From NCBI GenBank assembly GCA_034520665.1, contig JAXHNJ010000003.1, forward strand, positions 11,057-75,056: a DNA stretch of 64,000 nucleotides, written 5' to 3'. The notes beneath the pieces are model-generated. The model did not search any database and had not been told where the DNA came from. It saw nothing but the letters and a program-made list of their open reading frames with translations. The stretch's first letter is position 1. The number at the start of each line of letters is the position of its first letter. Source of the stretch: Patescibacteria group bacterium. GTDB taxonomy: Bacteria > Patescibacteriota > Patescibacteriia > JAXHNJ01. This document shows, one piece after another, positions 1,495 through 13,712 of this stretch. The translations under genes and the position numbers were made by a program.

Positions 1495-2195
1495 TGGCCC
1501 GACTTGGCCGTGATATTGGCCGGCAGAGTGCCTTCAAAGTAAGAATAGCCATCAAAATATTTTAAGTCTTTAATAGCCAAGTTAGGAATTTCAGCTAAGC
1601 GGTTATTAATAGTTTTTTCCAGCCATGCTTCAGCTTTTTCCAAATAACCTTCGGGCACTGGAATTAAGCCAATTTTCCCTTTTTTTATTTTTAACTCAAT
1701 TGTCTGATCATCCTTTCTTTCCACTAAAACCCGAGTCCAGACCGGCACCTTAAGAGGTTTATTTAAAAAAGCAGATAACTCAAGACCACCTTCAATCATT
1801 TTTACCTGTAAAGAACGGCCCGGGTGATCTTCTGGAAAAGAATACTGAAGCAGTGAAGTAATTTCCTCCTGAGTCGGCTGCAAACTCAAAGAAACCTGAT
1901 CCTTATATTCTTTCTGGCTAAAAGGATGACTATTAGCCTCGAGATTTATTTTTAGCCCGGTTTTTTGTAAAAAGTTTTGCCTTATTTCCTGGCTGGAATT
2001 TACTTTAAGATCCTTAGCCTGGGCGGTTGAAAAAATATGAGAAAGACCCGGTATTTTGTATAAACCGGTCAGACCGATTAAAACTAATGGTATTAAAATA
2101 ATGATCAGACCGAAAACCAGCCAAAGCCATTTTTTTGACTTTTGCTTTTTTTCCGGTTTAATTGGATTAATATCTGACTTATTCTCTAGTCTCAT
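1479..2195 (-). CDS. hypothetical membrane-anchored protein
   Basis: 238 aa. Lys-rich N-terminus followed by one TM helix (WLWLVFGLIIILIPLVLIGL); the rest is predicted soluble with no recognisable family. Confidence 0.45.
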   Translation of the reverse strand: MRLENKSDINPIKPEKKQKSKKWLWLVFGLIIILIPLVLIGLTGLYKIPGLSHIFSTAQAKDLKVNSSQEIRQNFLQKTGLKINLEANSHPFSQKEYKDQVSLSLQPTQEEITSLLQYSFPEDHPGRSLQVKMIEGGLELSAFLNKPLKVPVWTRVLVERKDDQTIELKIKKGKIGLIPVPEGYLEKAEAWLEKTINNRLAEIPNLAIKDLKYFDGYSYFEGTLPANITAKSGQWLDI

Positions 2196-2571
2196 TTTTT
2201 TTATTTATTTGTTTATCAATAGTGCCAATCAGCTCATGAGGACTGGTTTTAGCTTTGACAAAATACCCGGAAGCCCCCAAAGCCAAGGCTCTTTTTATAG
2301 ATTCTTTATCTTCAATATTAGTCAGCATAATAATAGGTATGTTTTTGGTTTTGTCTTCTTTTTTGACAAATTGCAAAAAATCAAAGCCGTTAATTTTCGG
2401 AATTCGAATATCCAACAAAACTAAATCAGGAAAATTTTGTTTAATTTTTTTTAAACCCTCTTCGCCGTCAGAAGCTGAGCTAGTTTTGAAGTTAGCTTCT
2501 TGTAATATTTTTTTTAAAGCAAAGACCTCGGTGGGTTCGTCTTCAATAATTAATATTTTTTTATCAGCCAT
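2179..2571 (-). CDS. response regulator, receiver domain only (CheY-like)
   Basis: 130 aa. KILIIEDEP...DLVLLDIRIPKINGFDFL... receiver pattern with phospho-acceptor Asp and the Lys near the C-terminus; no output domain. Confidence 0.8.
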   Translation of the reverse strand: MADKKILIIEDEPTEVFALKKILQEANFKTSSASDGEEGLKKIKQNFPDLVLLDIRIPKINGFDFLQFVKKEDKTKNIPIIMLTNIEDKESIKRALALGASGYFVKAKTSPHELIGTIDKQINKKNETRE

Positions 2572-2941
2572 TTTTTATAACCTTTTTTATTTTATTAATA
2601 AAATCATCCAAATTAAATTCAGTCTTTATTAGATAATCTTTAGCCCCCAGCTTAAGTCCTTTTTCAATATCACCTTTTTTGCTTAAATTAGACATAATCA
2701 CCACCGGAATATCTCTATATTTATCATTTTCCTTAATTTCCTTTAAAAAATCATAACCACTCATTTGGGGAAGAATAATATCCAAGACGATTAAATCAGG
2801 CTCATCTTTCTCCAGAGCCTCTAAAGCTTTTTCTCCGGAATCAACTGTGGTAATTGAATACCCATCAACGGTTAGACGAGCCTTAAGAGCGTAGAGTAAA
2901 GCCGCTTCATCCTCGATTATTAATATTTTTTTTGATTTCAT
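2564..2941 (-). CDS. response regulator, receiver domain only (CheY-like)
   Basis: 125 aa. KILIIEDEAALLYAL...DLIVLDIILPQMSGYDFL; second stand-alone receiver, overlapping the downstream receiver gene by 8 nt. Confidence 0.8.
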   Translation of the reverse strand: MKSKKILIIEDEAALLYALKARLTVDGYSITTVDSGEKALEALEKDEPDLIVLDIILPQMSGYDFLKEIKENDKYRDIPVVIMSNLSKKGDIEKGLKLGAKDYLIKTEFNLDDFINKIKKVIKNG

Positions 2942-2958
2942 AATTTTAGATTTAATAT

Positions 2959-4032
2959 TTATGATAATGGTAAATTAAAATAAAAGGTAGTACCGACTCC
3001 TTTTTTGGAAGCCACGCCAATATTGCCCCCATGGGCTTCAACAATGCCTTTGACAATAACCAAACCTAAACCAGATCCTTTTTCCTTTTTTTGGGAAACA
3101 TTTTTCATCTGCTCAAACTTATTAAAAAGTTTTGATAAATTCTTAAAAGAAATACCCTGGCCATTATCAGTTACAGAAATAACTAGTGACTGGTCGTAAT
3201 TATCAAGCTTATTGTCACCACCTTTAAGATACCACTCAATCTGATTTTTCTCCGCTTCCTGGTTTAGGTCATGCTTTTTTTTATGTAAAAAAGCGCCGAT
3301 TTCTATACGCCCCTCTTTTTTGGTAAATTTAATAGCATTGGACAATAGATTCTCAAAAACCTGGCGCATTTTTTTCTTATCAATTGGTATTTGAGGTAAA
3401 TTTTCTGACTTTTTAAACTTGATTGATATATTTTTATTTCCGGCCACGGGTTTAAAATACTTAATAACATCTTCGATCAAATAGGAAATATCAGATACCT
3501 CTTTTTCTGCTTTAAACATGCCAGACTCAATTTTTGAAACATCCAGTAAGTCATTAACAATATCAAGCATCCTCTGACTGCTTTGATTTACCAGCTTGAC
3601 TGGTTCTTCAAAGTGGCGAACCTTATCTTTTTTAATATCATCAATCATTAAATTAGAAACCATGCGTAAACCGTTTAAAGGTGACCGCAGGTCATGAACC
3701 ATCATATTTATGAATTCTGTCCTTTGTTTTTCGGCCTTTTTCAACTTCTCCAAAGTATTTTTTAGTTTAGTGTTTATATTTTGCAGATTTTTTTTAGAAT
3801 CAGCCACTTTAACCGTGCCCTGATGGACAAAATAAGAAATAATAAACATAACCATAGCTATAAAAACTGTCATCAAAAAAACAATTTCTTCTGAATAATA
3901 ATTACGGGCAATAAAAAAAGTGGTCAAAATAAGCAGTATGGTGATAAAGCCGGCAAAAATAAACAAAGAAGAAGGACATTCGAAAAAACCAAGTTTAAGG
4001 TCTTTGCATTCTTTAAATGATTTAATTTTCAT
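2959..4032 (-). CDS. sensor histidine kinase (HisKA plus HATPase_c)
   Basis: 357 aa. Two N-terminal TM helices, H-box MVHDLRSPLNGL, then N/G boxes (DNGQGISFKNLSKLFNKFEQ, GSGLGLVIVKGIVEAHGG). Confidence 0.85.
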   Translation of the reverse strand: MKIKSFKECKDLKLGFFECPSSLFIFAGFITILLILTTFFIARNYYSEEIVFLMTVFIAMVMFIISYFVHQGTVKVADSKKNLQNINTKLKNTLEKLKKAEKQRTEFINMMVHDLRSPLNGLRMVSNLMIDDIKKDKVRHFEEPVKLVNQSSQRMLDIVNDLLDVSKIESGMFKAEKEVSDISYLIEDVIKYFKPVAGNKNISIKFKKSENLPQIPIDKKKMRQVFENLLSNAIKFTKKEGRIEIGAFLHKKKHDLNQEAEKNQIEWYLKGGDNKLDNYDQSLVISVTDNGQGISFKNLSKLFNKFEQMKNVSQKKEKGSGLGLVIVKGIVEAHGGNIGVASKKGVGTTFYFNLPLS

Positions 4033-4035
4033 ATA

Positions 4036-4338
4036 TTAATCAGTTAACAAGCCCCAAATAAAGGCGTAGATTAAACTATAAAATAAGAGAGAGTAAAATA
4101 TTCTTTGAGCTTTTGTTTTTGTTTTTATTATAGCATAGCTCTCCTTTTTTTCCTCTTTCCCTCCGATTATTTTTATAATATAAATAAGGCCGTAAACAAA
4201 AGTAACACCAGAGGCTATTTTAAAACATAGATTATAAGGTAATTGTCCGGCCAGACCATAAAGGACTAAAGAAAGCAGAAAAGTTAAAACAAATATTAGA
4301 AGTAAACTTAAGATCAATTTTTTTAATCTTAAAACCAT
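4036..4338 (-). CDS. small integral membrane protein
   Basis: 100 aa, three predicted TM helices; no family recognised. Confidence 0.35.
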   Translation of the reverse strand: MVLRLKKLILSLLLIFVLTFLLSLVLYGLAGQLPYNLCFKIASGVTFVYGLIYIIKIIGGKEEKKESYAIIKTKTKAQRIFYSLLFYSLIYAFIWGLLTD

Positions 4339-4343
4339 AAAGT

Positions 4344-5996
4344 TTACATTTTAACCACTTGACCCGGATTAAGGCTGTGATAATTTTTATTTTGGGATCT
4401 GGTTGATTTTTTATTTTCTTTGCTTGAATAATTTTTATTATCTTGGTGTGAAGATTTTCTCTGCTTAGCTTTTCTCCGCTTGCTTTGTTTAAAGGAAGTG
4501 GGCTCTTTACCTAAAGCTTCTTTCAATGATATTGCCTTTTTATTATCAATACTAGCTTGGGGCACAATTTTTTCTTTGCGAAAATCTACTTTAGGTTTAT
4601 TATCTTTTTTGTTATATCTTCTGTTTTTATTATAATTTTTATTATAATTTCGGTTTGTCTGATTATTGCTTTGGCTTTTTTGGGCTTCTGATTTGGCTCC
4701 GGTCCAGCGAGAAATTTTATCTTCAATTATTTCCCTTTTTTCTGAATATCTTTCCCGGGAAGTACGAATTATTTTTTCGCGGTTACCTTCCTCTTCTGTT
4801 ACTGGTGGCAAAGTAGAGGCAGAAAAAGGATCAGAAGCCACACCGTCAATCATTAGTTTTAAATAAACCTCATACTTAGTTAAATTAACTAAATCAGTCT
4901 CCGAAAAAATAGGCTCAAATTCCTTGACTAAAAATTCCGCGTCAGCAGCCCCCACCCGGAAAGCCACAATAGTGCCGACATTACCAAAAACAGCCGCCTG
5001 AACCTTTTCATCCAGCTGTTCAATATACTGATGAGCAATGGTTAAATCCAGCCGGTATTTTCTGGCCTCAGATAAAATAGTAGCAAAACTCTCGGTAGCA
5101 AAGTTCTGAAATTCATCAACATAAAGGTAAAAATCTTTTCTTTCTTCCTCAGGAACATCAATCCGACTCATAGCGGCCAGCTGAATTTTCGTCACCATCA
5201 TAGCTCCCAGTAATGAAGAATTATCCTCGCCCACTCGTCCCTTGGAAAGATTCAAAAGTAAGATTTTACCCTCATCCATAATTTCACGCATATCAATGGT
5301 GCTTTTGGGCTGGCCTACAATATTCCTGATGACCGAGCTGGATAAAAACTGCCCGACCTTATTTTGAATAGGAGAAATAGCTTCGGTACGAAACTGATTA
5401 GAATAGGCTTGATATTCATTCTTCCAAAAGGCCTTGACCACTGGATCAGTGATTTTATCCACCACTTTTTTGCGATAATTTTTATCCACCAGCAAACGAG
5501 TAACACCAAGAAGAGTGCTGCCTGGATATTCAAGCAAAGATAAAATAGTATTACGCAATAAGTATTCCAAACGCGGTCCCCAGGAATCAATCCATATTTT
5601 CTTGAAAACAGCAATTAAGCCAGAAGTAACTAAATGATGATAGGTCGGATCAACAGATTCCAAAACATTAAAAGCAATGGGATAATCTAAATCAGCCGGA
5701 TTAAAATAAACCACGTCATTAATACGATGAGAAGGAATAAACTGAATAACTCTTTCTACTAAATCACCCAGCGGATCTATTAGAGCCACTCCTTTGCCTC
5801 TATGAATATCATCTACAATCATATTTTCAATAGTGGTAGATTTTCCCATGCCGGTTTTACCAATAATATACATATGACGACGACGATCATCACTTTTAAT
5901 ACCAAACTTCCGGTTTATATTCCGAAAATTGGTCATAGCAAAAGGAGTAATCTCATTCTCCTGATTATTATTATTTTGACTATTATTGGTTGCCAT
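4344..5996 (-). CDS. FtsK/HerA/VirD4-superfamily P-loop ATPase (type IV coupling protein-like), no membrane domain, N/K-rich C-terminal tail
   Basis: 550 aa. Walker A IIGKTGMGKSTT followed by ALIDPLGDL (DPKGD/DPHGEY-like). Walker B FYLYVDEFQNF, then RKYRLDLTIAHQ...FGNVGT, typical of the TrwB/VirD4/HerA clade. The last ~130 aa are low complexity (N, K, Q, S, R). Confidence 0.6.
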   Translation of the reverse strand: MATNNSQNNNNQENEITPFAMTNFRNINRKFGIKSDDRRRHMYIIGKTGMGKSTTIENMIVDDIHRGKGVALIDPLGDLVERVIQFIPSHRINDVVYFNPADLDYPIAFNVLESVDPTYHHLVTSGLIAVFKKIWIDSWGPRLEYLLRNTILSLLEYPGSTLLGVTRLLVDKNYRKKVVDKITDPVVKAFWKNEYQAYSNQFRTEAISPIQNKVGQFLSSSVIRNIVGQPKSTIDMREIMDEGKILLLNLSKGRVGEDNSSLLGAMMVTKIQLAAMSRIDVPEEERKDFYLYVDEFQNFATESFATILSEARKYRLDLTIAHQYIEQLDEKVQAAVFGNVGTIVAFRVGAADAEFLVKEFEPIFSETDLVNLTKYEVYLKLMIDGVASDPFSASTLPPVTEEEGNREKIIRTSRERYSEKREIIEDKISRWTGAKSEAQKSQSNNQTNRNYNKNYNKNRRYNKKDNKPKVDFRKEKIVPQASIDNKKAISLKEALGKEPTSFKQSKRRKAKQRKSSHQDNKNYSSKENKKSTRSQNKNYHSLNPGQVVKM

Positions 5997-7460: not shown

Positions 7461-8600
7461 TTATTTTTGTTTCAAATCTTGATCTTTTTCAATTAAAGTA
7501 TAGGTTTTATCAGGATTTTTATTAAATTTTTTAGAGTCGGATAAAGCCAGTAAAATAGTATTCTTTTTAACCATTCTTCTTTTTAAAACCCTCGCCACAA
7601 TTTCATCCCGTTTTAATGGTTGGTCAGAATTTTTTAAAACATCTTCAATAACATCAGACACCACACCAGACTGATAACCCCATTCTTTTAAAGCATAAAT
7701 ACCGCGGCCAACCAAAACATATTCGTCATTTAAAATTAATTCATTATGAACTGTTGGCGGATAGGCTTTTTTTCGGTCAAATCCGGCCTTGTTTATCAGC
7801 TCAGCAATTTTAGTAAAATGTAAGGGCTTTTCCTGTTTTTTTAAAATAATATGAATTTTATCATTTATTCTTTTTGGATTTATACTGCCCCAACTAGATA
7901 ACCCAAAATCACCATAAGGATTCATATCAATTTTTTTACTAATCCTTAAATAAGAAATTATAGCTTCATCTGATAAAACCTCATTTTCTGATTCATAGAA
8001 TTCAGTTTTTTTAAACTTTTTTATCACTTTGTCCTGGGAAATAGGCTTACCTTCTACTTTAAGGATTTCTAAAAAATTTTCTATAGATTTATCAAGAAGC
8101 TTTCGGCTGGCTGATTCTAGCTGCCATGAATCTCTTAACTTTTTATCACTAAGTGTTTCATACTTATAATCAAAAATACTCTTCATAAGAAATTTTACAG
8201 CGTTATCATTGACTTTATTATCCCCAGCATGAGATAAAAGTTTTTCATTAAAAAAATTCTTTTCCATAATACTGCCATGTTCGTGGATGAGATGAGTAAT
8301 TATACCTTCTACTTCATTAATTAAATCTTTAAATTGTGAGGATTTCTTAATTTTTTTCACTGAAGAGTTTTCAATTTGTCGAATTCTTTCCCGAGTAACG
8401 TTAAAATGATTACCAATTTCTTCCAAAGTTTCTTCTTTGTCACCGCTTAAGCCATATCGGCGCCTTAAAATATCCTCTTCTTTACTGGAAACTAACTTCA
8501 GAAGTGAAGAAACTATTTCTAGCGGATTAAAATGACTGATATCTGAAGCTTGTTTCGAGCTGAGGATCTTGTCTAAAAGACTTGAATCTTGCTCATTCAT
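7461..8600 (-). CDS. sigma-70 region 4 (N-terminal) fused to C-terminal HARE-HTH domain protein
   Basis: 379 aa. aa 40-90 EEDILRRRYGLSGDKEETLEEIGNHFNVTRERIRQIE is a textbook sigma70_r4 HTH. aa 270-330 KPLHFTKIAELINKAG...YPPTVHNELILNDEYVLVGRGIYALKEWGY matches the HARE-HTH of RNAP delta subunit. No region 2 or 3. Confidence 0.6.
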   Translation of the reverse strand: MNEQDSSLLDKILSSKQASDISHFNPLEIVSSLLKLVSSKEEDILRRRYGLSGDKEETLEEIGNHFNVTRERIRQIENSSVKKIKKSSQFKDLINEVEGIITHLIHEHGSIMEKNFFNEKLLSHAGDNKVNDNAVKFLMKSIFDYKYETLSDKKLRDSWQLESASRKLLDKSIENFLEILKVEGKPISQDKVIKKFKKTEFYESENEVLSDEAIISYLRISKKIDMNPYGDFGLSSWGSINPKRINDKIHIILKKQEKPLHFTKIAELINKAGFDRKKAYPPTVHNELILNDEYVLVGRGIYALKEWGYQSGVVSDVIEDVLKNSDQPLKRDEIVARVLKRRMVKKNTILLALSDSKKFNKNPDKTYTLIEKDQDLKQK

Positions 8601-8777: not shown

Positions 8778-9671
8778 TTAGTTTTTCCGGTGATACCAGA
8801 CCGAAAGTAAAGGTGAAGCTATAAAAATAGAAGAATAGGTGCCAATAATAACCCCAATAATTAAGGCTAATATAAAAAAACGAATACTTTCACCACCAAA
8901 TAATAGTAGAGCCAATAAAACAAGTAAGGTAGTTATAGAAGTATTAAGAGAGCGAACTATGGTCTGATTGATGCTTTTGTTTAAAATTTCATCAAAGTCT
9001 TCACTCTCACCCTTAGTCAACCCTTCCCTAACCCGGTCAAAAACTACAATCGTGTCATGTACTGAAAAACCAAGTATAGTTAACAAAGCTGTAACAAAGA
9101 ATATATCCACTTCAATATTAAAGAAAAAGCCCAAAGCAGCAAAAACACCCAGAGTAATTAATATATCATGGATCAAGGCAATAATAGCATTAAAGCCAAA
9201 TACCGGGCTATTGATATGCGAAAATTTAATTTTTCTAAAAGCCCAAGAAATATAAATAATTATACCGACTAAGACCAAGGCAATAGCTACAAACGCTTTT
9301 TGTTTTAATTCCTGTCCAATTGTCGGGCCAATAGATTCAAAGCTTTCCTCAGTCACAGGTCCGAATTTTTCTTCTAACGAAGTTATAATATTATTTCTTT
9401 CTTGATTACTTAGTGTTTTTAGGCGTAAAAGTATACTTTCTTGGCCAGATTTTTGAACTTTTATTTCTCCCAGTTCTAATTGATTTAAATTTTCACGTAT
9501 CTCATTTGTTTCTGGAATTTCATTTTTAAAATTAATCTGCATCAAAGTGCCGCCAGTAAAATCAATACCCAGTTTAAGCCCTCCCGTAAAAATAAAAAAC
9601 AAACTAATTAAAATAAGCAAACCAGAAAATATAAACCAAATTTTTTTCTTTTCAATAATTTTATACATCAT
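8778..9671 (-). CDS. secF: protein translocase subunit SecF
   Basis: 297 aa. LKLGIDFTGGTLMQINF start, six TM helices, directly downstream of secD and overlapping it by 11 nt. Confidence 0.9.
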   Translation of the reverse strand: MMYKIIEKKKIWFIFSGLLILISLFFIFTGGLKLGIDFTGGTLMQINFKNEIPETNEIRENLNQLELGEIKVQKSGQESILLRLKTLSNQERNNIITSLEEKFGPVTEESFESIGPTIGQELKQKAFVAIALVLVGIIIYISWAFRKIKFSHINSPVFGFNAIIALIHDILITLGVFAALGFFFNIEVDIFFVTALLTILGFSVHDTIVVFDRVREGLTKGESEDFDEILNKSINQTIVRSLNTSITTLLVLLALLLFGGESIRFFILALIIGVIIGTYSSIFIASPLLSVWYHRKN

Positions 9672-11331
9672 CTTTTTTTACTCCTTTTACTCCTAAAAAT
9701 GAGGGGTGTTTTTCTAAAAAATTACCGGCTATTAATCTTAAAAAGGTACGCGTAACAATAATAGCCGAAAACATAGAAATTAATATACCCACACCCAAGG
9801 TTATAGCAAAACCTTTTATTAGACTGGTGCCAAACCAGGCTAAAATAACACAGGTAATAATTGATGAAAAGTTAGAATCACGAATAGAGAGCCAGGCTCT
9901 TTTAAAGCCTTCCTCAATAGCCATATTTAAAGGTTTATCGCTCTCTAACTCTTCTTTAATCCTTTCAAAAATCAAAACATTCGCATCAACCGCCATCCCA
10001 ATGGATAATATAAAACCAGCCACCCCGGCTAAAGTCAATGTGATTGACCAAAGTTTAAAAATCGCGACTACTAAAAGCGTATAAATAGCTAAAGCAAAAA
10101 CTGAAATCAAACCAGGCAGACGATAATAAATAATCATAAATAGAGCTAAAAAAGCTAAACCAAGCAAGGCGGCAAAGAAACTTTTCTGAACCGAAATTTT
10201 ACCCAAAGAAGCCCCTATATTCTGCTGGCTAATTAAAGTAATGGGCACTGGCAAAGCCCCCGAATTTAAACGTTGGGCTAATTCCTTAGCCTCGGTCACA
10301 CTAAATTCACCGGTAATAACAGCTTTACCATCAGGTATTTTTTCATTAACCCGAGGCATGGATATAGGAGAACCGTCGAGATAAATACCGACTATATTCC
10401 CGATATTTTCCTCTGTTATCTGAGCAAACAATTCTTTGCCTTCATCATTAAATTCTAAAGCTACCTGAGCTTCTCCGGTTTGGTTATTAAACTGCAAATA
10501 AGCTTTTTCTAATTGCTGGCCGGAAAGTCCGGTATTTATCAGGCCCTGATTGGTTTGATAATCAGCTTCTGATTTCTTTTTTATAAGTATATGAGAAGCC
10601 TTAACCTCTTTATTTTCACCTTCTCCTTTTTCTTCCGTCTTTAAAATGATATGGTAGCCAAAATCAGTCTCTACTAATTCCGGATAAACCTGGCCTATTT
10701 TGGCCTTTTCAAAAATAGCTTGTTCAAAAGCCGGTACCATTTCTCCTTTTTTGAAAAAGCCTAAATCCCCTCCCTGTTCCTGACTACCTGGATCTTCACT
10801 TTTTTCCTTGGCCAGAGTAGAAAAATTTTCAGGGGTGGCCTGGTCTAATATTTCTTGAGCTTTATTTTTGGCTTCCTCATTATACTCTTCAATTTTTTGC
10901 TTTTGTTCTGGAGTTAATTCAACCGGCGGCGGTTGTTTTTTAAATTCAAGCAAAGGTGTTTTACCGATCATTTCCACGGCTTGATTAACCTCTGTTACTC
11001 CAGGTAACTCCACAATAACCCGCCAGTCATCTCCGGATTTATTAGTTTGAACAACTGGCTCAGAAACCCCAAAAGTATTAACTCTTCTCTCAATAACATC
11101 ACGGACCCCTTCTAAGGCGCTAGCTTTTTCAGCTTCTTCTATTTTAGAGGTATCGGCCTGATAGACTAAATGAGTCCCTCCCTGTAGATCAAGACCTAAA
11201 TGAATTTTTAATTCCTTAAAATAAGAGCCAATTTTTATATCTGGCCCGGCCGGATAATCAACTATACCCGCTAAAACAGCTAGTATAATTATACCGATAA
11301 ATGTCAGCCAAATTTTCTTTCTAATATTCAT
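9661..11331 (-). CDS. secD: protein translocase subunit SecD with parvulin (PpiC-type PPIase) insertion in the periplasmic domain
   Basis: 556 aa. LGLDLQGGTHLVYQAD SecD signature and C-terminal six-TM bundle. Inserted between LLEFKK and the P1 head is GGDLGFFKKGEMVPAFEQAIFEKAKIGQVYPELVETDFGYHIILK (parvulin core) followed by VKASHILIKKK (normally the first strand of a parvulin). Confidence 0.88.
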   Translation of the reverse strand: MNIRKKIWLTFIGIIILAVLAGIVDYPAGPDIKIGSYFKELKIHLGLDLQGGTHLVYQADTSKIEEAEKASALEGVRDVIERRVNTFGVSEPVVQTNKSGDDWRVIVELPGVTEVNQAVEMIGKTPLLEFKKQPPPVELTPEQKQKIEEYNEEAKNKAQEILDQATPENFSTLAKEKSEDPGSQEQGGDLGFFKKGEMVPAFEQAIFEKAKIGQVYPELVETDFGYHIILKTEEKGEGENKEVKASHILIKKKSEADYQTNQGLINTGLSGQQLEKAYLQFNNQTGEAQVALEFNDEGKELFAQITEENIGNIVGIYLDGSPISMPRVNEKIPDGKAVITGEFSVTEAKELAQRLNSGALPVPITLISQQNIGASLGKISVQKSFFAALLGLAFLALFMIIYYRLPGLISVFALAIYTLLVVAIFKLWSITLTLAGVAGFILSIGMAVDANVLIFERIKEELESDKPLNMAIEEGFKRAWLSIRDSNFSSIITCVILAWFGTSLIKGFAITLGVGILISMFSAIIVTRTFLRLIAGNFLEKHPSFLGVKGVKKDDV

Positions 11332-11642: not shown

Positions 11643-12131
11643 TTACTTAAATAAAACCGGTAGACAAAGTTCTTCAAGTTCTTTTTCCAGCCCCCGAGGG
11701 TTGGATTGAGTAATATAAATATAACCTTTTTCAATATTTTCGGCTTCAAATTCAATTTCTACCTTAAAATCAACAAAATTATCAGTCATCCAATTACCAT
11801 CAGCAAAAATACTTCCCTCTCTTAAAACAAGTCCCCCTTGACTGACTAGTCTAAAAGGCATTTCACCTTCAGAAAACCAAGTTCCCTTAGCCTGGCCTTC
11901 TATAGTTAAAGGACTGGTTATAACTTGATTGTCTTCTATGTTCTCTACTACTATTTCATTCGATAAACCTTCTCTGTTACCAGGTCTTGTTTTTTCAAGA
12001 TTTTCATTCTCATTGGCTGCCTGATTGGTCTGTTTATTAACCGAACCTTTTGTAAACCAATAAATACTGGATACTCCAATCACTATTAAAATAAGCACCA
12101 AAGCGGTTATAAATGTTTTTTTGTCAATCAT
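11643..12131 (-). CDS. Gmad2 immunoglobulin-like domain protein, membrane anchored
   Basis: 162 aa. N-terminal TM, then GQAKGTWFSEGEMPFRLVSQGGLVLREGSIFADGNWMTDNFVDF matching the Gmad2 pattern (ArG.WFFEa.FPv.L.d..G). Confidence 0.5.
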   Translation of the reverse strand: MIDKKTFITALVLILIVIGVSSIYWFTKGSVNKQTNQAANENENLEKTRPGNREGLSNEIVVENIEDNQVITSPLTIEGQAKGTWFSEGEMPFRLVSQGGLVLREGSIFADGNWMTDNFVDFKVEIEFEAENIEKGYIYITQSNPRGLEKELEELCLPVLFK

Positions 12132-12200: not shown

Positions 12201-13712
12201 TTAATTATGGATTAATATCGGAGTACCCACTTCCGTAAAATTATAAACATATTCAGCCGCTTCCCAGGATAATCTAACACACCCATGAGAGACACGAATA
12301 CCCAGATGATTTTCTCCTTCTTTTATCACCCCCCCACTACGCAGCTTCCAGTAGGGTAAGCCGTGCAAGCCGTGACCAATCCCGGTAAACTGCTGCCAAT
12401 AAGGCATATACAAAGCATAGCTTGATGAGTAAGCATTGGGTGATTTATTCATCACTTTATAGGTACCAACTGGGGTATCCATACTCGGCTTACCTGAAGA
12501 GATAATATAATTTTTTATGACCATACCATTCTCACGTAAAAATAAACGCTGGCTGGAAATATCTATTTCAACATATTTTAAGCTGTTCGAAAGTGTAGTT
12601 CCAGAAAGAAACCCAGGTCCGGTTATTAATTCAATATCATTATCACCATTAAGATCACCAGCCGCTAAATAAACCCCGCCTCTGAAATTTCTAGGATAAG
12701 GAAAAAAGTTTACGTTAGCCAGCGAGCCATCATAATTAAATCCCCGAACATGCGGACCGCCGCCTGAATTAGCCGCGGTAATAATTTCATCGTATCCATC
12801 TGAATCAATATCACCACAAGTTAAGTTAACCCCGCCTTGAAAACTACCATCATAGGCGTAGAAACCGGCCAGTTTATTTTTTTCTTGATCATAAACTTCC
12901 ACAATCGGCCGACCATTTTTGTAGACAGCGGTTACTATTTCTTCTTTTAGATCATTTGTTAAATTTCCGCTGGCCACGGAGACACCGCCTCGGTGATTAA
13001 AATCAAATGGCCAGAAATCTTTGCCTAAGTTAATTCCACTGGCCGAGAATATTCTGACATGAGCTCCGCCTCCCGGTCCCGGACCGGTTATTATTTCAGA
13101 AACACCATCACCGGTTAAATCACCGCAAGCTACATTAACGCCGCCCCTAAAACTGGGAGCGTAAGCCATAAAGCTTTCTAGTTGCCGTCCCCTGTTATCA
13201 AAAACTTTAACGTTTGGACCACCCCCGGCCCCCGGACCAGTGATAATTTCAGAAACTCCATCACCGGTTAAATCACAACTGGCTACTTTTATGCCTTTTC
13301 TAAAACGCACGTCATAAGCCATAAAACTTTTATACTTATCTCCTTCACCAGCAAATATCTGTACGTTGGGGCCCCCTCCCGGTCCAGCCCCAACAATAAT
13401 TTCATCAGACCCATCAGCGTCAACATCACCACTGGCCAGACGAACTCCACCTTTGAAGGATTTTAAAAAGCCAAAAAAACTAGAGGTTTGTAAATTATTT
13501 TCAAATATTTTAACTTCCGGTACAATACTGCCATAAGCCTTAACTTTTTTTGGACATAAAAAAATAACCCCTAGAACAAGGATTACCATTGTTAAAATAA
13601 TATAAAATTTTTGATACCTAAAAGGCATATTTTTTGTTTTTGTTTTTAACACAAAGGTGAAAGCCAGAGGCCTTAAGATGCTTGATGGTTTTTGTAACCA
13701 GGAGGCACACAA
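12201..13712 (-). CDS. FG-GAP repeat beta-propeller fused to L,D-transpeptidase (YkuD) catalytic domain
   Basis: 503 aa. Five or six repeats of GD(V/L)..DG..EII.G.G.GGGP.V.(I/V)F. The C-terminus has the SHGCVRLS catalytic Cys motif with preceding HGLHG, as in L,D-transpeptidases. Confidence 0.75.
   Translation of the reverse strand: MCASWLQKPSSILRPLAFTFVLKTKTKNMPFRYQKFYIILTMVILVLGVIFLCPKKVKAYGSIVPEVKIFENNLQTSSFFGFLKSFKGGVRLASGDVDADGSDEIIVGAGPGGGPNVQIFAGEGDKYKSFMAYDVRFRKGIKVASCDLTGDGVSEIITGPGAGGGPNVKVFDNRGRQLESFMAYAPSFRGGVNVACGDLTGDGVSEIITGPGPGGGAHVRIFSASGINLGKDFWPFDFNHRGGVSVASGNLTNDLKEEIVTAVYKNGRPIVEVYDQEKNKLAGFYAYDGSFQGGVNLTCGDIDSDGYDEIITAANSGGGPHVRGFNYDGSLANVNFFPYPRNFRGGVYLAAGDLNGDNDIELITGPGFLSGTTLSNSLKYVEIDISSQRLFLRENGMVIKNYIISSGKPSMDTPVGTYKVMNKSPNAYSSSYALYMPYWQQFTGIGHGLHGLPYWKLRSGGVIKEGENHLGIRVSHGCVRLSWEAAEYVYNFTEVGTPILIHN

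What the first reader, a model, noticed from the sequence alone, without database searches (positions are those of the whole stretch)
10390..10920. SecD carries an inserted parvulin-type PPIase domain that appears circularly permuted
Between the conserved LLEFKK segment and the P1 head of SecD lies roughly 120 aa with the PpiC/PrsA core motif (GGDLGFFKKGEMVPAFEQAIFE...FGYHIILK). The strand that normally opens a parvulin domain (V.ASHILVK) is found after the FGYHII strand (KEVKASHILIKKK). A folding catalyst built into the translocon's periplasmic arm would be a notable adaptation for a cell with a minimal chaperone set; the permutation is unusual in itself.
Basis: partly seen in the sequence, partly recalled or inferred. 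Interest (0 to 1): 0.6.

Follow-up and report, generated by a model that had tools for sequence, protein, structure and literature searches.

The report
SecD with built-in, circularly permuted parvulin
The protein-export subunit SecD of this candidate-phyla-radiation bacterium carries, in its outward-facing arm, a prolyl-isomerase (parvulin) domain whose first strand has moved to the end, and the same unremarked fusion occurs in many related bacteria, which suggests a folding helper wired into the export machine.

Summary
SecD (window 9661-11331, minus strand, 556 aa) has about 125 residues (aa 133-262) between the P1-base strand LLEFKK and the P1 head. Thermus SecDF has about 31 residues there. 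Pfam finds a parvulin domain at aa 144-233 (E 6.8e-24) that lacks the first profile strand.

The missing strand, with its catalytic His, follows beta4 as KEVKASHILI (aa 242-251). Four lines support a real circular permutation:
- Re-ordering the same residues raises a canonical parvulin HMM score in 142 of 142 SecD inserts (+9.0 +/- 1.5 bits).
- AlphaFold2 predicts a confident beta4/beta1' hairpin (pLDDT 92 for the insert).
- Covariation links the trailing strand to beta2, beta4 and the start of helix 1.
- His247 is kept in 137 of 142 inserts, and Asp189/His227/His247 together in 114 of 142.

The fusion is widespread in Patescibacteria (Kerfeld-, Buchanan- and Moranbacteria). Every source that gives a name calls these proteins only "SecD". 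I found no paper describing the fusion or any permuted parvulin.

Some relatives carry two parvulin units. Their pattern of His loss suggests a canonical domain nested in the hairpin loop of a degenerate permuted one.

The likely function is a PrsA/PpiD-like foldase fused to the SecDF head. Activity was not tested.

Verdict: a new variant of known kinds, moderately to highly interesting.

The parts
9661..11331 (-). secD gene (556 aa, stop codon included) carrying the insert
   Evidence: TIGR01129 secD scores 382.6 bits against a cutoff of 244.4. The protein is 100% identical to an NCBI Patescibacteria MAG SecD.
10936..11109 (-). P1 base, N-terminal part (SecD_1st, aa 75-132), ending in the strand LLEFKK
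   Evidence: Pfam PF21760, E 2.7e-17. Aligns to Thermus SecDF residues 29-116.
10546..10935 (-). The whole insert (aa 133-262): a circularly permuted parvulin domain between P1 base and P1 head
   Evidence: AF2 gives mean pLDDT 91.9 and pTM 0.81 for this segment.
10633..10896 (-). Parvulin core found by Pfam (aa 146-233): helices 1-3, beta2 (GGDLGF), helix 4, beta3, beta4 (FGYHIILK)
   Evidence: Rotamase_3 E 6.8e-24. PF00639 matches profile positions 8-95 of 97.
10750..10773 (-). beta2 and catalytic loop GGDLGFFK (aa 187-194). Asp189 corresponds to Pin1 Cys113 / Par10 Asp41.
   Evidence: Predicted strand E189-194. Asp189 is kept in 118 of 142 single inserts.
10627..10659 (-). beta4 (aa 225-235) with catalytic His227
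   Evidence: Predicted strand E225-235. His227 is kept in 141 of 142 inserts.
10579..10608 (-). Displaced beta1 strand (beta1', aa 242-251, EVKASHILIK) with catalytic His247
   Evidence: AF2 strand with pLDDT 95-97. His247 is kept in 137 of 142 inserts. Matches canonical beta1 when moved to the front. Covaries with beta2, beta4 and the start of helix 1.
10246..10533 (-). P1 head subdomain (aa 267-362)
   Evidence: Pfam PF22599, E 2.1e-27. Aligns to Thermus SecDF from residue 148.
9733..10239 (-). SecD transmembrane domain (aa 365-533) with the invariant Asp449 in AVDANV
   Evidence: Pfam PF02355. Asp449 is invariant in alignment A2 and aligns to the Asp of Thermus AVDGNV.
8778..9671 (-). secF, the partner subunit, overlapping secD by 11 nt
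   Evidence: Pfam SecD_SecF_C E 3.6e-59. A secF lies immediately downstream of the fused secD in all 10 related genome loci that carry the fusion.

Best explanation
This is a genuine SecD (with SecF encoded next to it) in which the short variable segment between the P1 base and the P1 head is replaced by a complete but circularly permuted parvulin PPIase domain.

The domain starts with helix 1, runs through beta2 (GGDLG), helix 4, beta3 and beta4 (FGYHII), then turns back in a hairpin. It supplies the central 'first' strand (KASHILI, with the second catalytic His) last. The sheet order would therefore be the canonical beta2-beta1'-beta4-beta3. The attachment points to SecD are the helix-1 N-terminus and the beta1' C-terminus, not the usual beta1 N-terminus and beta4 C-terminus.

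The most economical origin is out-of-register capture of one repeat length from a tandem-parvulin gene, from helix 1 of one unit to beta1 of the next. The insert aligns to SurA in exactly that way.

Functionally, P1 is the extracytoplasmic arm that seizes the polypeptide leaving SecYEG. The fused parvulin would then meet unfolded secretory chains at once and act as a PrsA/PpiD-like prolyl isomerase and holdase in cis.

Shown here: the architecture, the permutation at sequence level, a confident predicted fold, conservation of the catalytic residues, and wide occurrence in Patescibacteria.

Inferred: extracytoplasmic location (by homology of P1), the exact strand position in 3D, catalytic activity, and hand-over of substrates from the head to the parvulin.
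For: - Architecture: Pfam and NCBIfam.
- Insertion site relative to the solved Thermus and Deinococcus SecDF. The full-length model matches SecDF structures.
- All 120 best homologues (59-100% identity) carry PF00639 inside SecD.
- Of the 149 other proteins listed among the best 150 50%-identity cluster representatives (P0113 was already held), 56 are SecD with one or two parvulin units. The 93 non-SecD relatives are tandem-parvulin proteins; the six printed in full start with beta1, and the three lipoprotein-like ones end right after beta4.
- Ten species-representative genomes carry the fusion with secF adjacent.
- The insert aligns to SurA from P1 helix 1 through P1 beta4 and the linker into P2 beta1 (GFHILKV...EVHARHILLKP).
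- Un-permuting raises the Pfam score and coverage. It also raises a canonical-unit HMM score by 9.0 +/- 1.5 bits in 142 of 142 inserts, with the alignment start moving from HMM position 28 to position 4.
- AF2: insert pLDDT 91.9, pTM 0.81, strands 225-235 and 242-251 as a hairpin.
- Foldseek: the only significant hits are parvulin PPIases and PrsA.
- MI-APC top pairs link beta1' to beta2 (F193-A245, F192-E242, D189-K244), to beta4 (register sum 476-478) and to the start of helix 1 (A154-I250, Y150-K253).
- Residue conservation: G188 and G225 in 142 of 142, H227 in 141, H247 in 137, D189 in 118, F202 in 133. One sequence changes both His to Tyr together.
- The trailing strand survives 40-60 aa expansions of the hairpin loop.
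- Non-covalent parvulin-Sec/SecDF associations are documented: PpiD/YfgM (PMC9643414), SurA (PMC9987972), and the Mycoplasma PrsA-like dome on the Sec translocon including SecDF (bioRxiv 10.1101/2025.04.25.650208 and 10.1101/2024.09.05.611430).
Against: - No coordinates could be inspected, so the placement of beta1' between beta2 and beta4, and the His227/His247 geometry, are inferred.
- DSSP strand boundaries alone would allow an odd register that puts the two His on opposite faces. Covariation favours an even register.
- Foldseek did not list the small single-domain parvulins (Pin1, Par10) in its top 50. This may reflect 3Di states that depend on sequence order, but it is unexplained.
- Full-length pTM is only 0.47, so the position of the parvulin relative to the head is not predicted.
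- About 20% of single inserts lack Asp189 or a His. A subgroup has GG[AL]Y.G instead of GGDLG. Catalysis is therefore not universal.
- No activity or interaction data exist.
Confidence: 0.75

Rival explanations
1. The inserted parvulin is folded and permuted, but it works as a non-catalytic substrate-binding or holdase module, like SurA P1 or the PpiD parvulin domain. It would extend the polypeptide-capturing surface of the SecD head rather than isomerise prolines.
For: - Asp189 is replaced in 24 of 142 single inserts, and a subgroup has GG[AL]Y.G.
- In double-insert SecDs the outer unit has lost both His, so a catalytically dead parvulin is tolerated and kept at this site.
- From general knowledge of the families, SurA P1 and the PpiD parvulin are inactive yet functional.
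Against: - 114 of 142 single inserts keep Asp189, His227 and His247 together. Met198 (98 of 142) and Phe202 (133 of 142), which align to Pin1 pocket residues by my own manual alignment, are also largely kept.
- Double-insert proteins always keep one unit with both His. This suggests selection for one active site per protein.
Confidence: 0.2
2. There is no real permutation. The insert is an N-terminally truncated parvulin followed by a vestigial beta1 of a lost second parvulin, or by a SecD-specific strand that merely resembles beta1. The trailing strand does not complete the sheet.
For: The insert aligns collinearly to the SurA P1-to-P2 boundary, so the trailing strand could be a remnant. No coordinates were available to prove sheet completion.
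Against: - The trailing strand is among the best-conserved parts of the insert (I248 in 141 of 142, L249 in 137, H247 in 137).
- It is kept across large loop expansions.
- It covaries with beta2 and the start of helix 1.
- AF2 predicts it with pLDDT 95-97 as a sheet strand, even for the isolated insert.
- A parvulin without its central strand would expose its core.
- The strand lies just upstream of the stretch of Thermus SecDF that first aligns to the P1 head.
Confidence: 0.04
3. Assembly or gene-calling artefact: a chimeric contig or a frameshift that fuses a parvulin gene into secD.
For: None found. The window comes from a metagenome-type low-GC genome.
Against: - It is one uninterrupted ORF.
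- The same architecture is present in more than 170 distinct proteins from NCBI, JGI, ENA and Logan assemblies, including contigs above 1 Mb.
Confidence: 0.01

Closest known systems
PrsA (Bacillus and other Firmicutes), the extracytoplasmic parvulin foldase lipoprotein
   Same: Both place a non-phospho-specific parvulin with GGDLG...FGYHII motifs on the trans side of the membrane of a probably monoderm cell, acting on Sec substrates. PrsA structures are among the best sequence and fold matches (6vj4, 5htf, 4wo7, 6xd8). NCBIfam PrsA models hit aa 151-284 at E 1e-16 to 1e-17.
   Different: PrsA is a separate lipoprotein. Its canonical (beta1-first) parvulin is inserted in an NC chaperone domain and the protein dimerises. 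Here there is no lipobox or NC domain (PrsA models score about 60 bits against cutoffs of 343-361), the domain is permuted, and it is covalently part of SecD.
SurA (E. coli) and other tandem-parvulin proteins
   Same: These are the best PDB sequence matches (E 4.6e-16). The insert aligns collinearly from P1 helix 1 through the P1/P2 linker into P2 beta1. That arrangement is the likely kind of donor for the permuted unit. SurA is reported to contact the Sec holotranslocon (PMC9987972).
   Different: In the tandem-parvulin relatives printed in full, each unit starts with its own beta1; I take beta4(n) and beta1(n+1) to belong to different domains, as in SurA (from knowledge of the family). In SecD a single unit uses the following beta1 to complete itself.
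PpiD/YfgM at SecYEG (E. coli)
   Same: A membrane-anchored parvulin-domain chaperone stationed at the periplasmic exit of the translocon (PMC9643414).
   Different: PpiD is a separate single-pass protein with a catalytically inactive canonical parvulin. Its association with the translocon is non-covalent.
Mycoplasma pneumoniae Mdp444/436/489 'dome' on the Sec translocon
   Same: In another genome-reduced bacterium, PrsA-like parvulin proteins sit directly over SecYEG-SecDF and cross-link to SecD. Folding is proposed to be coupled to translocation (bioRxiv 10.1101/2025.04.25.650208; 10.1101/2024.09.05.611430).
   Different: Those are large separate lipoproteins that form a cage. Here the link is a single-chain fusion inside SecD P1, with a permuted fold.
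Canonical SecDF (Thermus thermophilus 3AQP/5YHF, Deinococcus 5XAM/5XAN)
   Same: The P1 base, P1 head, six-helix TM domain, the TM Asp and an adjacent SecF are all present.
   Different: The canonical proteins have about 31 residues where this SecD has about 125. No enzyme domain is known in their P1.

Membership tests
SecD (protein translocase subunit) | Match to the SecD equivalog model above its curated cutoff | tested here: met
   TIGR01129 scores 382.6 bits against a cutoff of 244.4, covering aa 45-531 and model positions 1-397.
SecD (protein translocase subunit) | N-terminal TM helix, periplasmic P1 with base and head, and a C-terminal 5-TM RND-like domain with the conserved TM Asp | tested here: met
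   Pfam Sec_GG, SecD_1st, SecDF_P1_head and SecD_SecF_C. Predicted helices at 3-25 and 378-541. Asp449 is invariant and aligns to the Thermus AVDGNV Asp. Foldseek top hits are SecDF structures.
SecD (protein translocase subunit) | Partner SecF encoded adjacently or fused | tested here: met
   secF lies at 8778-9671 and overlaps secD by 11 nt. The same holds in 10 related loci.
SecD (protein translocase subunit) | PMF-dependent enhancement of protein export | not testable with these tools
   Requires genetics or biochemistry.
Parvulin PPIase (PpiC-type, PF00639/PF13616) | Profile match above the gathering score | tested here: met
   Rotamase_3 scores 85.1 bits (cutoff 22.5). Rotamase scores 74.9 bits (cutoff 21.7).
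Parvulin PPIase (PpiC-type, PF00639/PF13616) | Canonical order of elements: beta1-alpha1-3-beta2-alpha4-beta3-beta4 | tested here: not met
   The order is alpha1-3, beta2, alpha4, beta3, beta4, beta1'. All elements are present but circularly permuted.
Parvulin PPIase (PpiC-type, PF00639/PF13616) | Parvulin three-dimensional fold (four-stranded antiparallel sheet packed by helices) | tested here: inconclusive
Parvulin PPIase (PpiC-type, PF00639/PF13616) | Active-site residues: dual His, Asp/Cys in GGDLG, hydrophobic proline pocket | tested here: met
   His227, His247, Asp189, Leu190, Met198 and Phe202 are present in the window protein. Asp/His/His are kept together in 114 of 142 single inserts. 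The correspondence to Pin1 H59/C113/H157/M130/F134 comes from my own alignment and knowledge of the family.
Parvulin PPIase (PpiC-type, PF00639/PF13616) | Measured cis/trans prolyl isomerase activity | not testable with these tools
   Requires an enzyme assay.
PrsA foldase | Lipoprotein signal peptide plus an NC chaperone domain flanking the parvulin, with a match to the PrsA equivalog above its cutoff | tested here: not met
   NCBIfam PrsA models score 54-62 bits against cutoffs of 343-361, and only over the parvulin part. The flanks are SecD P1.
SurA | N-terminal and C-terminal chaperone core plus two canonical parvulin domains, with a match to the SurA equivalog above its cutoff | tested here: not met
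   NF008038 scores 38 bits against a cutoff of 394.

The most novel reading that the evidence does not exclude
The parvulin is mechanically coupled to the proton-driven swing of the SecDF P1 head. The PMF would then cycle a folding catalyst between capture of the emerging chain at the SecYEG exit and its release. That would amount to an energy-coupled extracytoplasmic foldase that replaces PrsA/PpiD in these reduced genomes.

On this reading, the permutation was selected because moving the attachment points to the opposite end of the sheet turns the active site toward the translocon. The nested double-parvulin variants would be elaborations of the same device.
Probability: 0.15. Interest if true: 0.85.

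Novelty: new variant of a known kind. Interest (0 to 1): 0.62.

Why it matters
Three reasons.

1. It is a natural 'Rosetta-stone' fusion linking SecDF and parvulin foldases. This link has so far been known only from transient or non-covalent complexes: PpiD/YfgM, SurA with the holotranslocon, and the Mycoplasma PrsA-like dome. The fusion argues that folding catalysis right at the SecDF head is a general and selectable arrangement. It also offers a compact single-chain system for studying the coupling of translocation and folding.

2. As far as my literature searches reach, it would be the first circularly permuted parvulin. It comes with a plausible origin (an out-of-register excerpt of a tandem array) and with natural nested-domain derivatives. 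That makes it useful for protein-evolution and design studies.

3. It adds a concrete envelope-biogenesis adaptation to the little-understood cell biology of Patescibacteria.

Tried and rejected
- Model coordinates are not exposed, so I could not measure sheet order or His-His distance. I substituted topology reasoning, an order-swap HMM test and covariation.
As a result, 70 of the 80 loci are ordinary parvulin genes of unrelated bacteria, and it does not give a census.
- The listing of cluster members gave almost no organism names.
- Literature searches for SecD+parvulin, parvulin+'circular permutation' or 'circularly permuted', SecD+PPIase domain+Patescibacteria, and SecDF+peptidyl-prolyl+fused found no description of this fusion.
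- The paper on the Bacteroides PPIase (8hm3/8hm4) that I could open does not describe its domains.
- I considered whether the trailing strand could be the unmatched first 18 positions of the P1-head profile. I rejected this because the alignment to Thermus SecDF (from residue 148) begins downstream of the strand, and the strand carries the canonical parvulin beta1 motif.
- I considered an assembly artefact and rejected it because of the recurrence across assemblies.
- I ran no further search on the taxonomy of the double-insert group.
Full report
**What is there**

The minus-strand ORF at 9661-11331 encodes a 556-aa protein. It is 100% identical to an NCBI metagenome-assembled protein named only 'protein translocase subunit SecD [Patescibacteria group bacterium]'.

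Pfam divides it as follows:
- Sec_GG, aa 43-62
- SecD_1st (P1 base), aa 75-132
- Rotamase_3 / Rotamase (parvulin), aa 146-233 / 144-231 (E 6.8e-24 / 1e-20)
- SecDF_P1_head, aa 267-362
- SecD_SecF_C, aa 365-533

The NCBIfam SecD equivalog is passed with 382.6 bits against a cutoff of 244.4. secF follows at 8778-9671 and overlaps secD by 11 nt.

Upstream on the same strand lie a Gmad2 Ig-like protein, an FG-GAP/YkuD L,D-transpeptidase and secA. The window is low-GC, about 0.35.

The insert proper is aa 133-262, which is nt 10546-10935.

**Where the insert sits**

Against the solved Thermus thermophilus SecDF, the protein aligns at aa 39-131 to residues 29-116 and at aa 257-537 to residues 148-428. 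Thermus therefore has about 31 residues where this SecD has about 125.

The site lies directly after the last P1-base strand (LLEFKK) and before the P1 head. From published SecDF work, the head is the part that binds the emerging preprotein and swings.

The full-length AF2 model has mean pLDDT 79 and pTM 0.47. It matches SecDF structures best: 5xan, 5yhf, and 3aqp with TMq 0.55. It does not fix the position of the parvulin relative to the head.

**Is it a permuted parvulin?**

1. *Profile coverage.* The Pfam profiles begin at position 8 of 97 (PF00639) and 28 of 116 (PF13616). The opening strand is therefore not found upstream, where the sequence is QPPPVELTPEQ....

2. *The SurA alignment.* The insert aligns collinearly to E. 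coli SurA from P1 helix 1 through P1 beta4 and the linker into P2 beta1: GFHILKV...EVHARHILLKP against GYHIILK...EVKASHILIKK.

3. *Moving the strand.* Moving aa 239-254 in front of helix 1 extends PF00639 coverage to positions 1-95 of 97. It raises the scores from 78.5 to 85.5 bits (PF00639) and from 90.6 to 98.9 bits (PF13616).

4. *A composition-controlled test.* I built an HMM from 186 canonical units of non-SecD tandem-parvulin proteins. I then scored 142 single SecD inserts in native order and in un-permuted order, using the same residues each time. The un-permuted order scores higher in 142 of 142 cases (+9.0 +/- 1.5 bits). The alignment start moves from HMM position 28 to position 4.

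5. *Structure prediction.* AF2 on the isolated insert with a 52-sequence alignment gives pLDDT 91.9 and pTM 0.81. The element order is H-H-H-E(beta2)-H-(beta3)-E(beta4, aa 225-235)-turn-E(aa 242-251). The last strand has pLDDT 95-97. The same elements appear in the full-length model.

6. *Topology.* beta4 already pairs with beta3 on one side and forms the hairpin with beta1' on the other. The six-residue beta2 must then pair with the free edge of beta1' (the canonical partner) or of the short beta3. The first option gives the canonical order beta2-beta1-beta4-beta3. This step is inference.

7. *Covariation.* I ran MI with APC correction on the 142 inserts (Neff about 120). The 30 strongest pairs include:
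   - beta2-beta1' pairs: F193-A245, F192-E242, D189-K244, F192-K244
   - beta4-beta1' hairpin pairs with register sum 476-478
   - pairs between the start of helix 1 and the end of beta1': Y150-K253, A154-I250, A154-K253

   These are the contacts expected if beta1' occupies the canonical beta1 position and the two ends of the insert meet. Phylogenetic confounding is possible.

**Conservation of the active site**

Counts in the 142 single inserts:

| Residue | Kept in |
|---|---|
| G188, G225 | 142 |
| H227 | 141 |
| H247 | 137 |
| I248 | 141 |
| L249 | 137 |
| F202 | 133 |
| D189 | 118 (plus E6, N5, S5) |
| D189 + H227 + H247 together | 114 |

By alignment to Pin1 (my knowledge of the family), H247, D189 and H227 correspond to H59, C113 and H157, and M198 and F202 to M130 and F134. 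The basic phosphate-binding loop of Pin1 is absent, so the domain is of the non-phospho-specific bacterial type.

One sequence (P0240) changes both His to Tyr together. A subgroup replaces GGDLG by GG[AL]Y.G.

**Distribution**

- All 120 best homologues (59-100% identity) carry PF00639 within SecD. Those that have a source name are labelled Patescibacteria group, Kerfeldbacteria or simply 'bacterium'.
- An exhaustive HMMER search of 1.84 billion cluster representatives, with aa 105-290 as query, gave 42 representatives at E <= 1e-30. Of the 149 other proteins among the best 150 (P0113 was already held), 56 are SecD with a parvulin insert.
- The other 93 are tandem-parvulin proteins with no SecD parts. 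The six printed in full start with a signal peptide or lipobox and then beta1; the three short lipoprotein-like ones end right after beta4, and the longer SurA-like ones continue past their parvulin units. None of those examined shows the SecD arrangement.
- A truncated scan of GTDB species genomes found 10 loci with the fusion, each with an adjacent secF. They include Moranbacteria and Buchananbacteria MAGs.
- Kerfeldbacteria and Moranbacteria (checked) fall in the NCBI 'Parcubacteria group'; I did not look up the Buchananbacteria lineage (one search listed names only).
- Five bins titled Gammaproteobacteria or Bdellovibrionales carry the same CPR-type SecD, with 49-65% identity outside the insert. 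They are probably mislabelled.
- The 64-kb window holds no second parvulin. The rest of the genome could not be examined.

**Variants that inform the mechanism**

Twenty-nine SecDs carry two parvulin units:

| Position | His kept |
|---|---|
| Unit A beta4 | 0 of 27 (replaced by N, E, Y, F or A) |
| Final trailing strand | 3 of 29 (mostly Arg) |
| Middle beta1 | 28 of 29 |
| Unit B beta4 | 29 of 29 |

Pfam sees unit B as a complete canonical domain, profile positions 1-96 of 97. The simplest reading is a canonical parvulin nested in the beta4-beta1' hairpin loop of a permuted outer parvulin that has become degenerate. I could not test this structurally.

Three other SecDs have 40-60 residue low-complexity expansions in the same loop and still end with EVRASHILIRKK. 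The hairpin loop is thus a tolerated insertion point, and the trailing strand is under selection.

**How it most likely works**

P1 of SecD is extracytoplasmic. This follows from homology with solved SecDF, and the predicted TM helix 3-25 precedes P1.

A parvulin attached where the head joins the base would lie next to the polypeptide that the head captures as it leaves SecYEG. I therefore propose a cis-acting PrsA/PpiD-like foldase or holdase.

Published work shows non-covalent versions of the same partnership:
- PpiD/YfgM at SecYEG (PMC9643414)
- SurA with the Sec machinery (PMC9987972)
- In genome-reduced Mycoplasma pneumoniae, PrsA-like parvulin lipoproteins that cross-link to SecD and form a dome over the translocon (10.1101/2024.09.05.611430; 10.1101/2025.04.25.650208)

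The permutation moves the attachment points from the beta1-N/beta4-C end of the sheet to the beta1-C/helix-1-N end. This would turn the domain around relative to a canonical insertion such as that in PrsA. Whether that orientation matters is speculation.

The likely origin is an out-of-register excerpt of one repeat length from a tandem-parvulin gene. This is the classical duplication-and-truncation route to circular permutation.

**Comparison with known families**

It is a member of SecD; all testable features are met. It belongs to the parvulin superfamily by sequence and active-site residues but fails the canonical element order. I file it as a permuted variant, not a standard member.

It is not PrsA, SurA or PpiD. 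Their equivalog models score far below cutoff, and their chaperone domains are absent.

**Novelty**

Six full-text searches found no description of a SecD-parvulin fusion or of a permuted parvulin. The held library lacks most subscription-journal papers.

The domain combination is visible in precomputed Pfam annotations of public proteins. The raw architecture is therefore 'in the databases' but, as far as I can see, unremarked.

**Verdict**

It is a new variant of known kinds.

- Interest: 0.62.
- Confidence in the architecture and permutation: about 0.9.
- Confidence in the foldase function: about 0.6.
- Overall confidence: 0.75.

Noticed in passing
Related proteins P0097, P0099, P0108, P0109, P0117, P0126-P0130, P0136, P0140 and others; loci L008, L009, L032 (SecD ORFs at about 3140-5206, 1644-3716 and 3560-5686): About 650-700-aa SecD variants carry two parvulin units in the same insert. 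The outer unit and the final strand have lost both catalytic His. The inner unit is a complete canonical parvulin with both His. This suggests a domain nested in the beta4-beta1' hairpin of the permuted one.
   Followed up: partly
Related proteins P0125 (aa 245-300), P0132 (aa 230-290), P0168 (aa 237-285): Low-complexity expansions of 40-60 residues (Gly/Val/Glu-rich or Asn/Glu-rich) sit in the beta4-beta1' hairpin loop. The EVRASHILI strand is retained after them.
   Followed up: partly
Loci L005, L007, L008, L009, L032: MAGs whose record titles say 'uncultured Gammaproteobacteria' or 'Bdellovibrionales' encode the CPR-type SecD-parvulin fusion, with 49-65% identity to the window SecD outside the insert. 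These bins are probably taxonomically mislabelled.
   Followed up: partly
L004 (Buchananbacteria, SecD ORF 3373-5211) and P0156, P0157, P0166, P0171, P0188, P0209: A subgroup replaces the catalytic GGDLG by GG[AL]Y.G. In L004 the trailing His also becomes Glu. Several of these proteins also have a divergent P1-base segment (TPTFEIR instead of TPLLEFK). They may be non-catalytic.
   Followed up: no
window 12201-13712 (-) and 11643-12131 (-): Between secA and secD lie a 503-aa secreted protein with FG-GAP repeats and a C-terminal YkuD L,D-transpeptidase domain, and a 162-aa membrane-anchored Gmad2 Ig-like protein. Together with the sec genes they form an envelope-related cluster.
   Followed up: partly
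window 7461-8600 (-): A 379-aa protein combines a Sigma-70 region 4 segment at its N-terminus with a HARE-HTH domain and has no sigma region 2. This is an unusual arrangement immediately downstream of secF.
   Followed up: no
Insert model ma1164f822682 (window aa 133-262): Foldseek against the PDB lists multi-domain parvulin proteins (8hm3/8hm4, PrsA) but none of the many small single-domain parvulins (Pin1, Par10) within E < 3. Yet phmmer finds these at E 1e-8 to 1e-14. The permutation may affect the 3Di states. This is unexplained.
   Followed up: no
Related protein P0132 (905 aa) and P0194 (1015 aa): Some insert-bearing proteins are single-chain SecDF fusions with two SecD/SecF TM domains. 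The parvulin insert therefore occurs in both split and fused SecDF genes.
   Followed up: no
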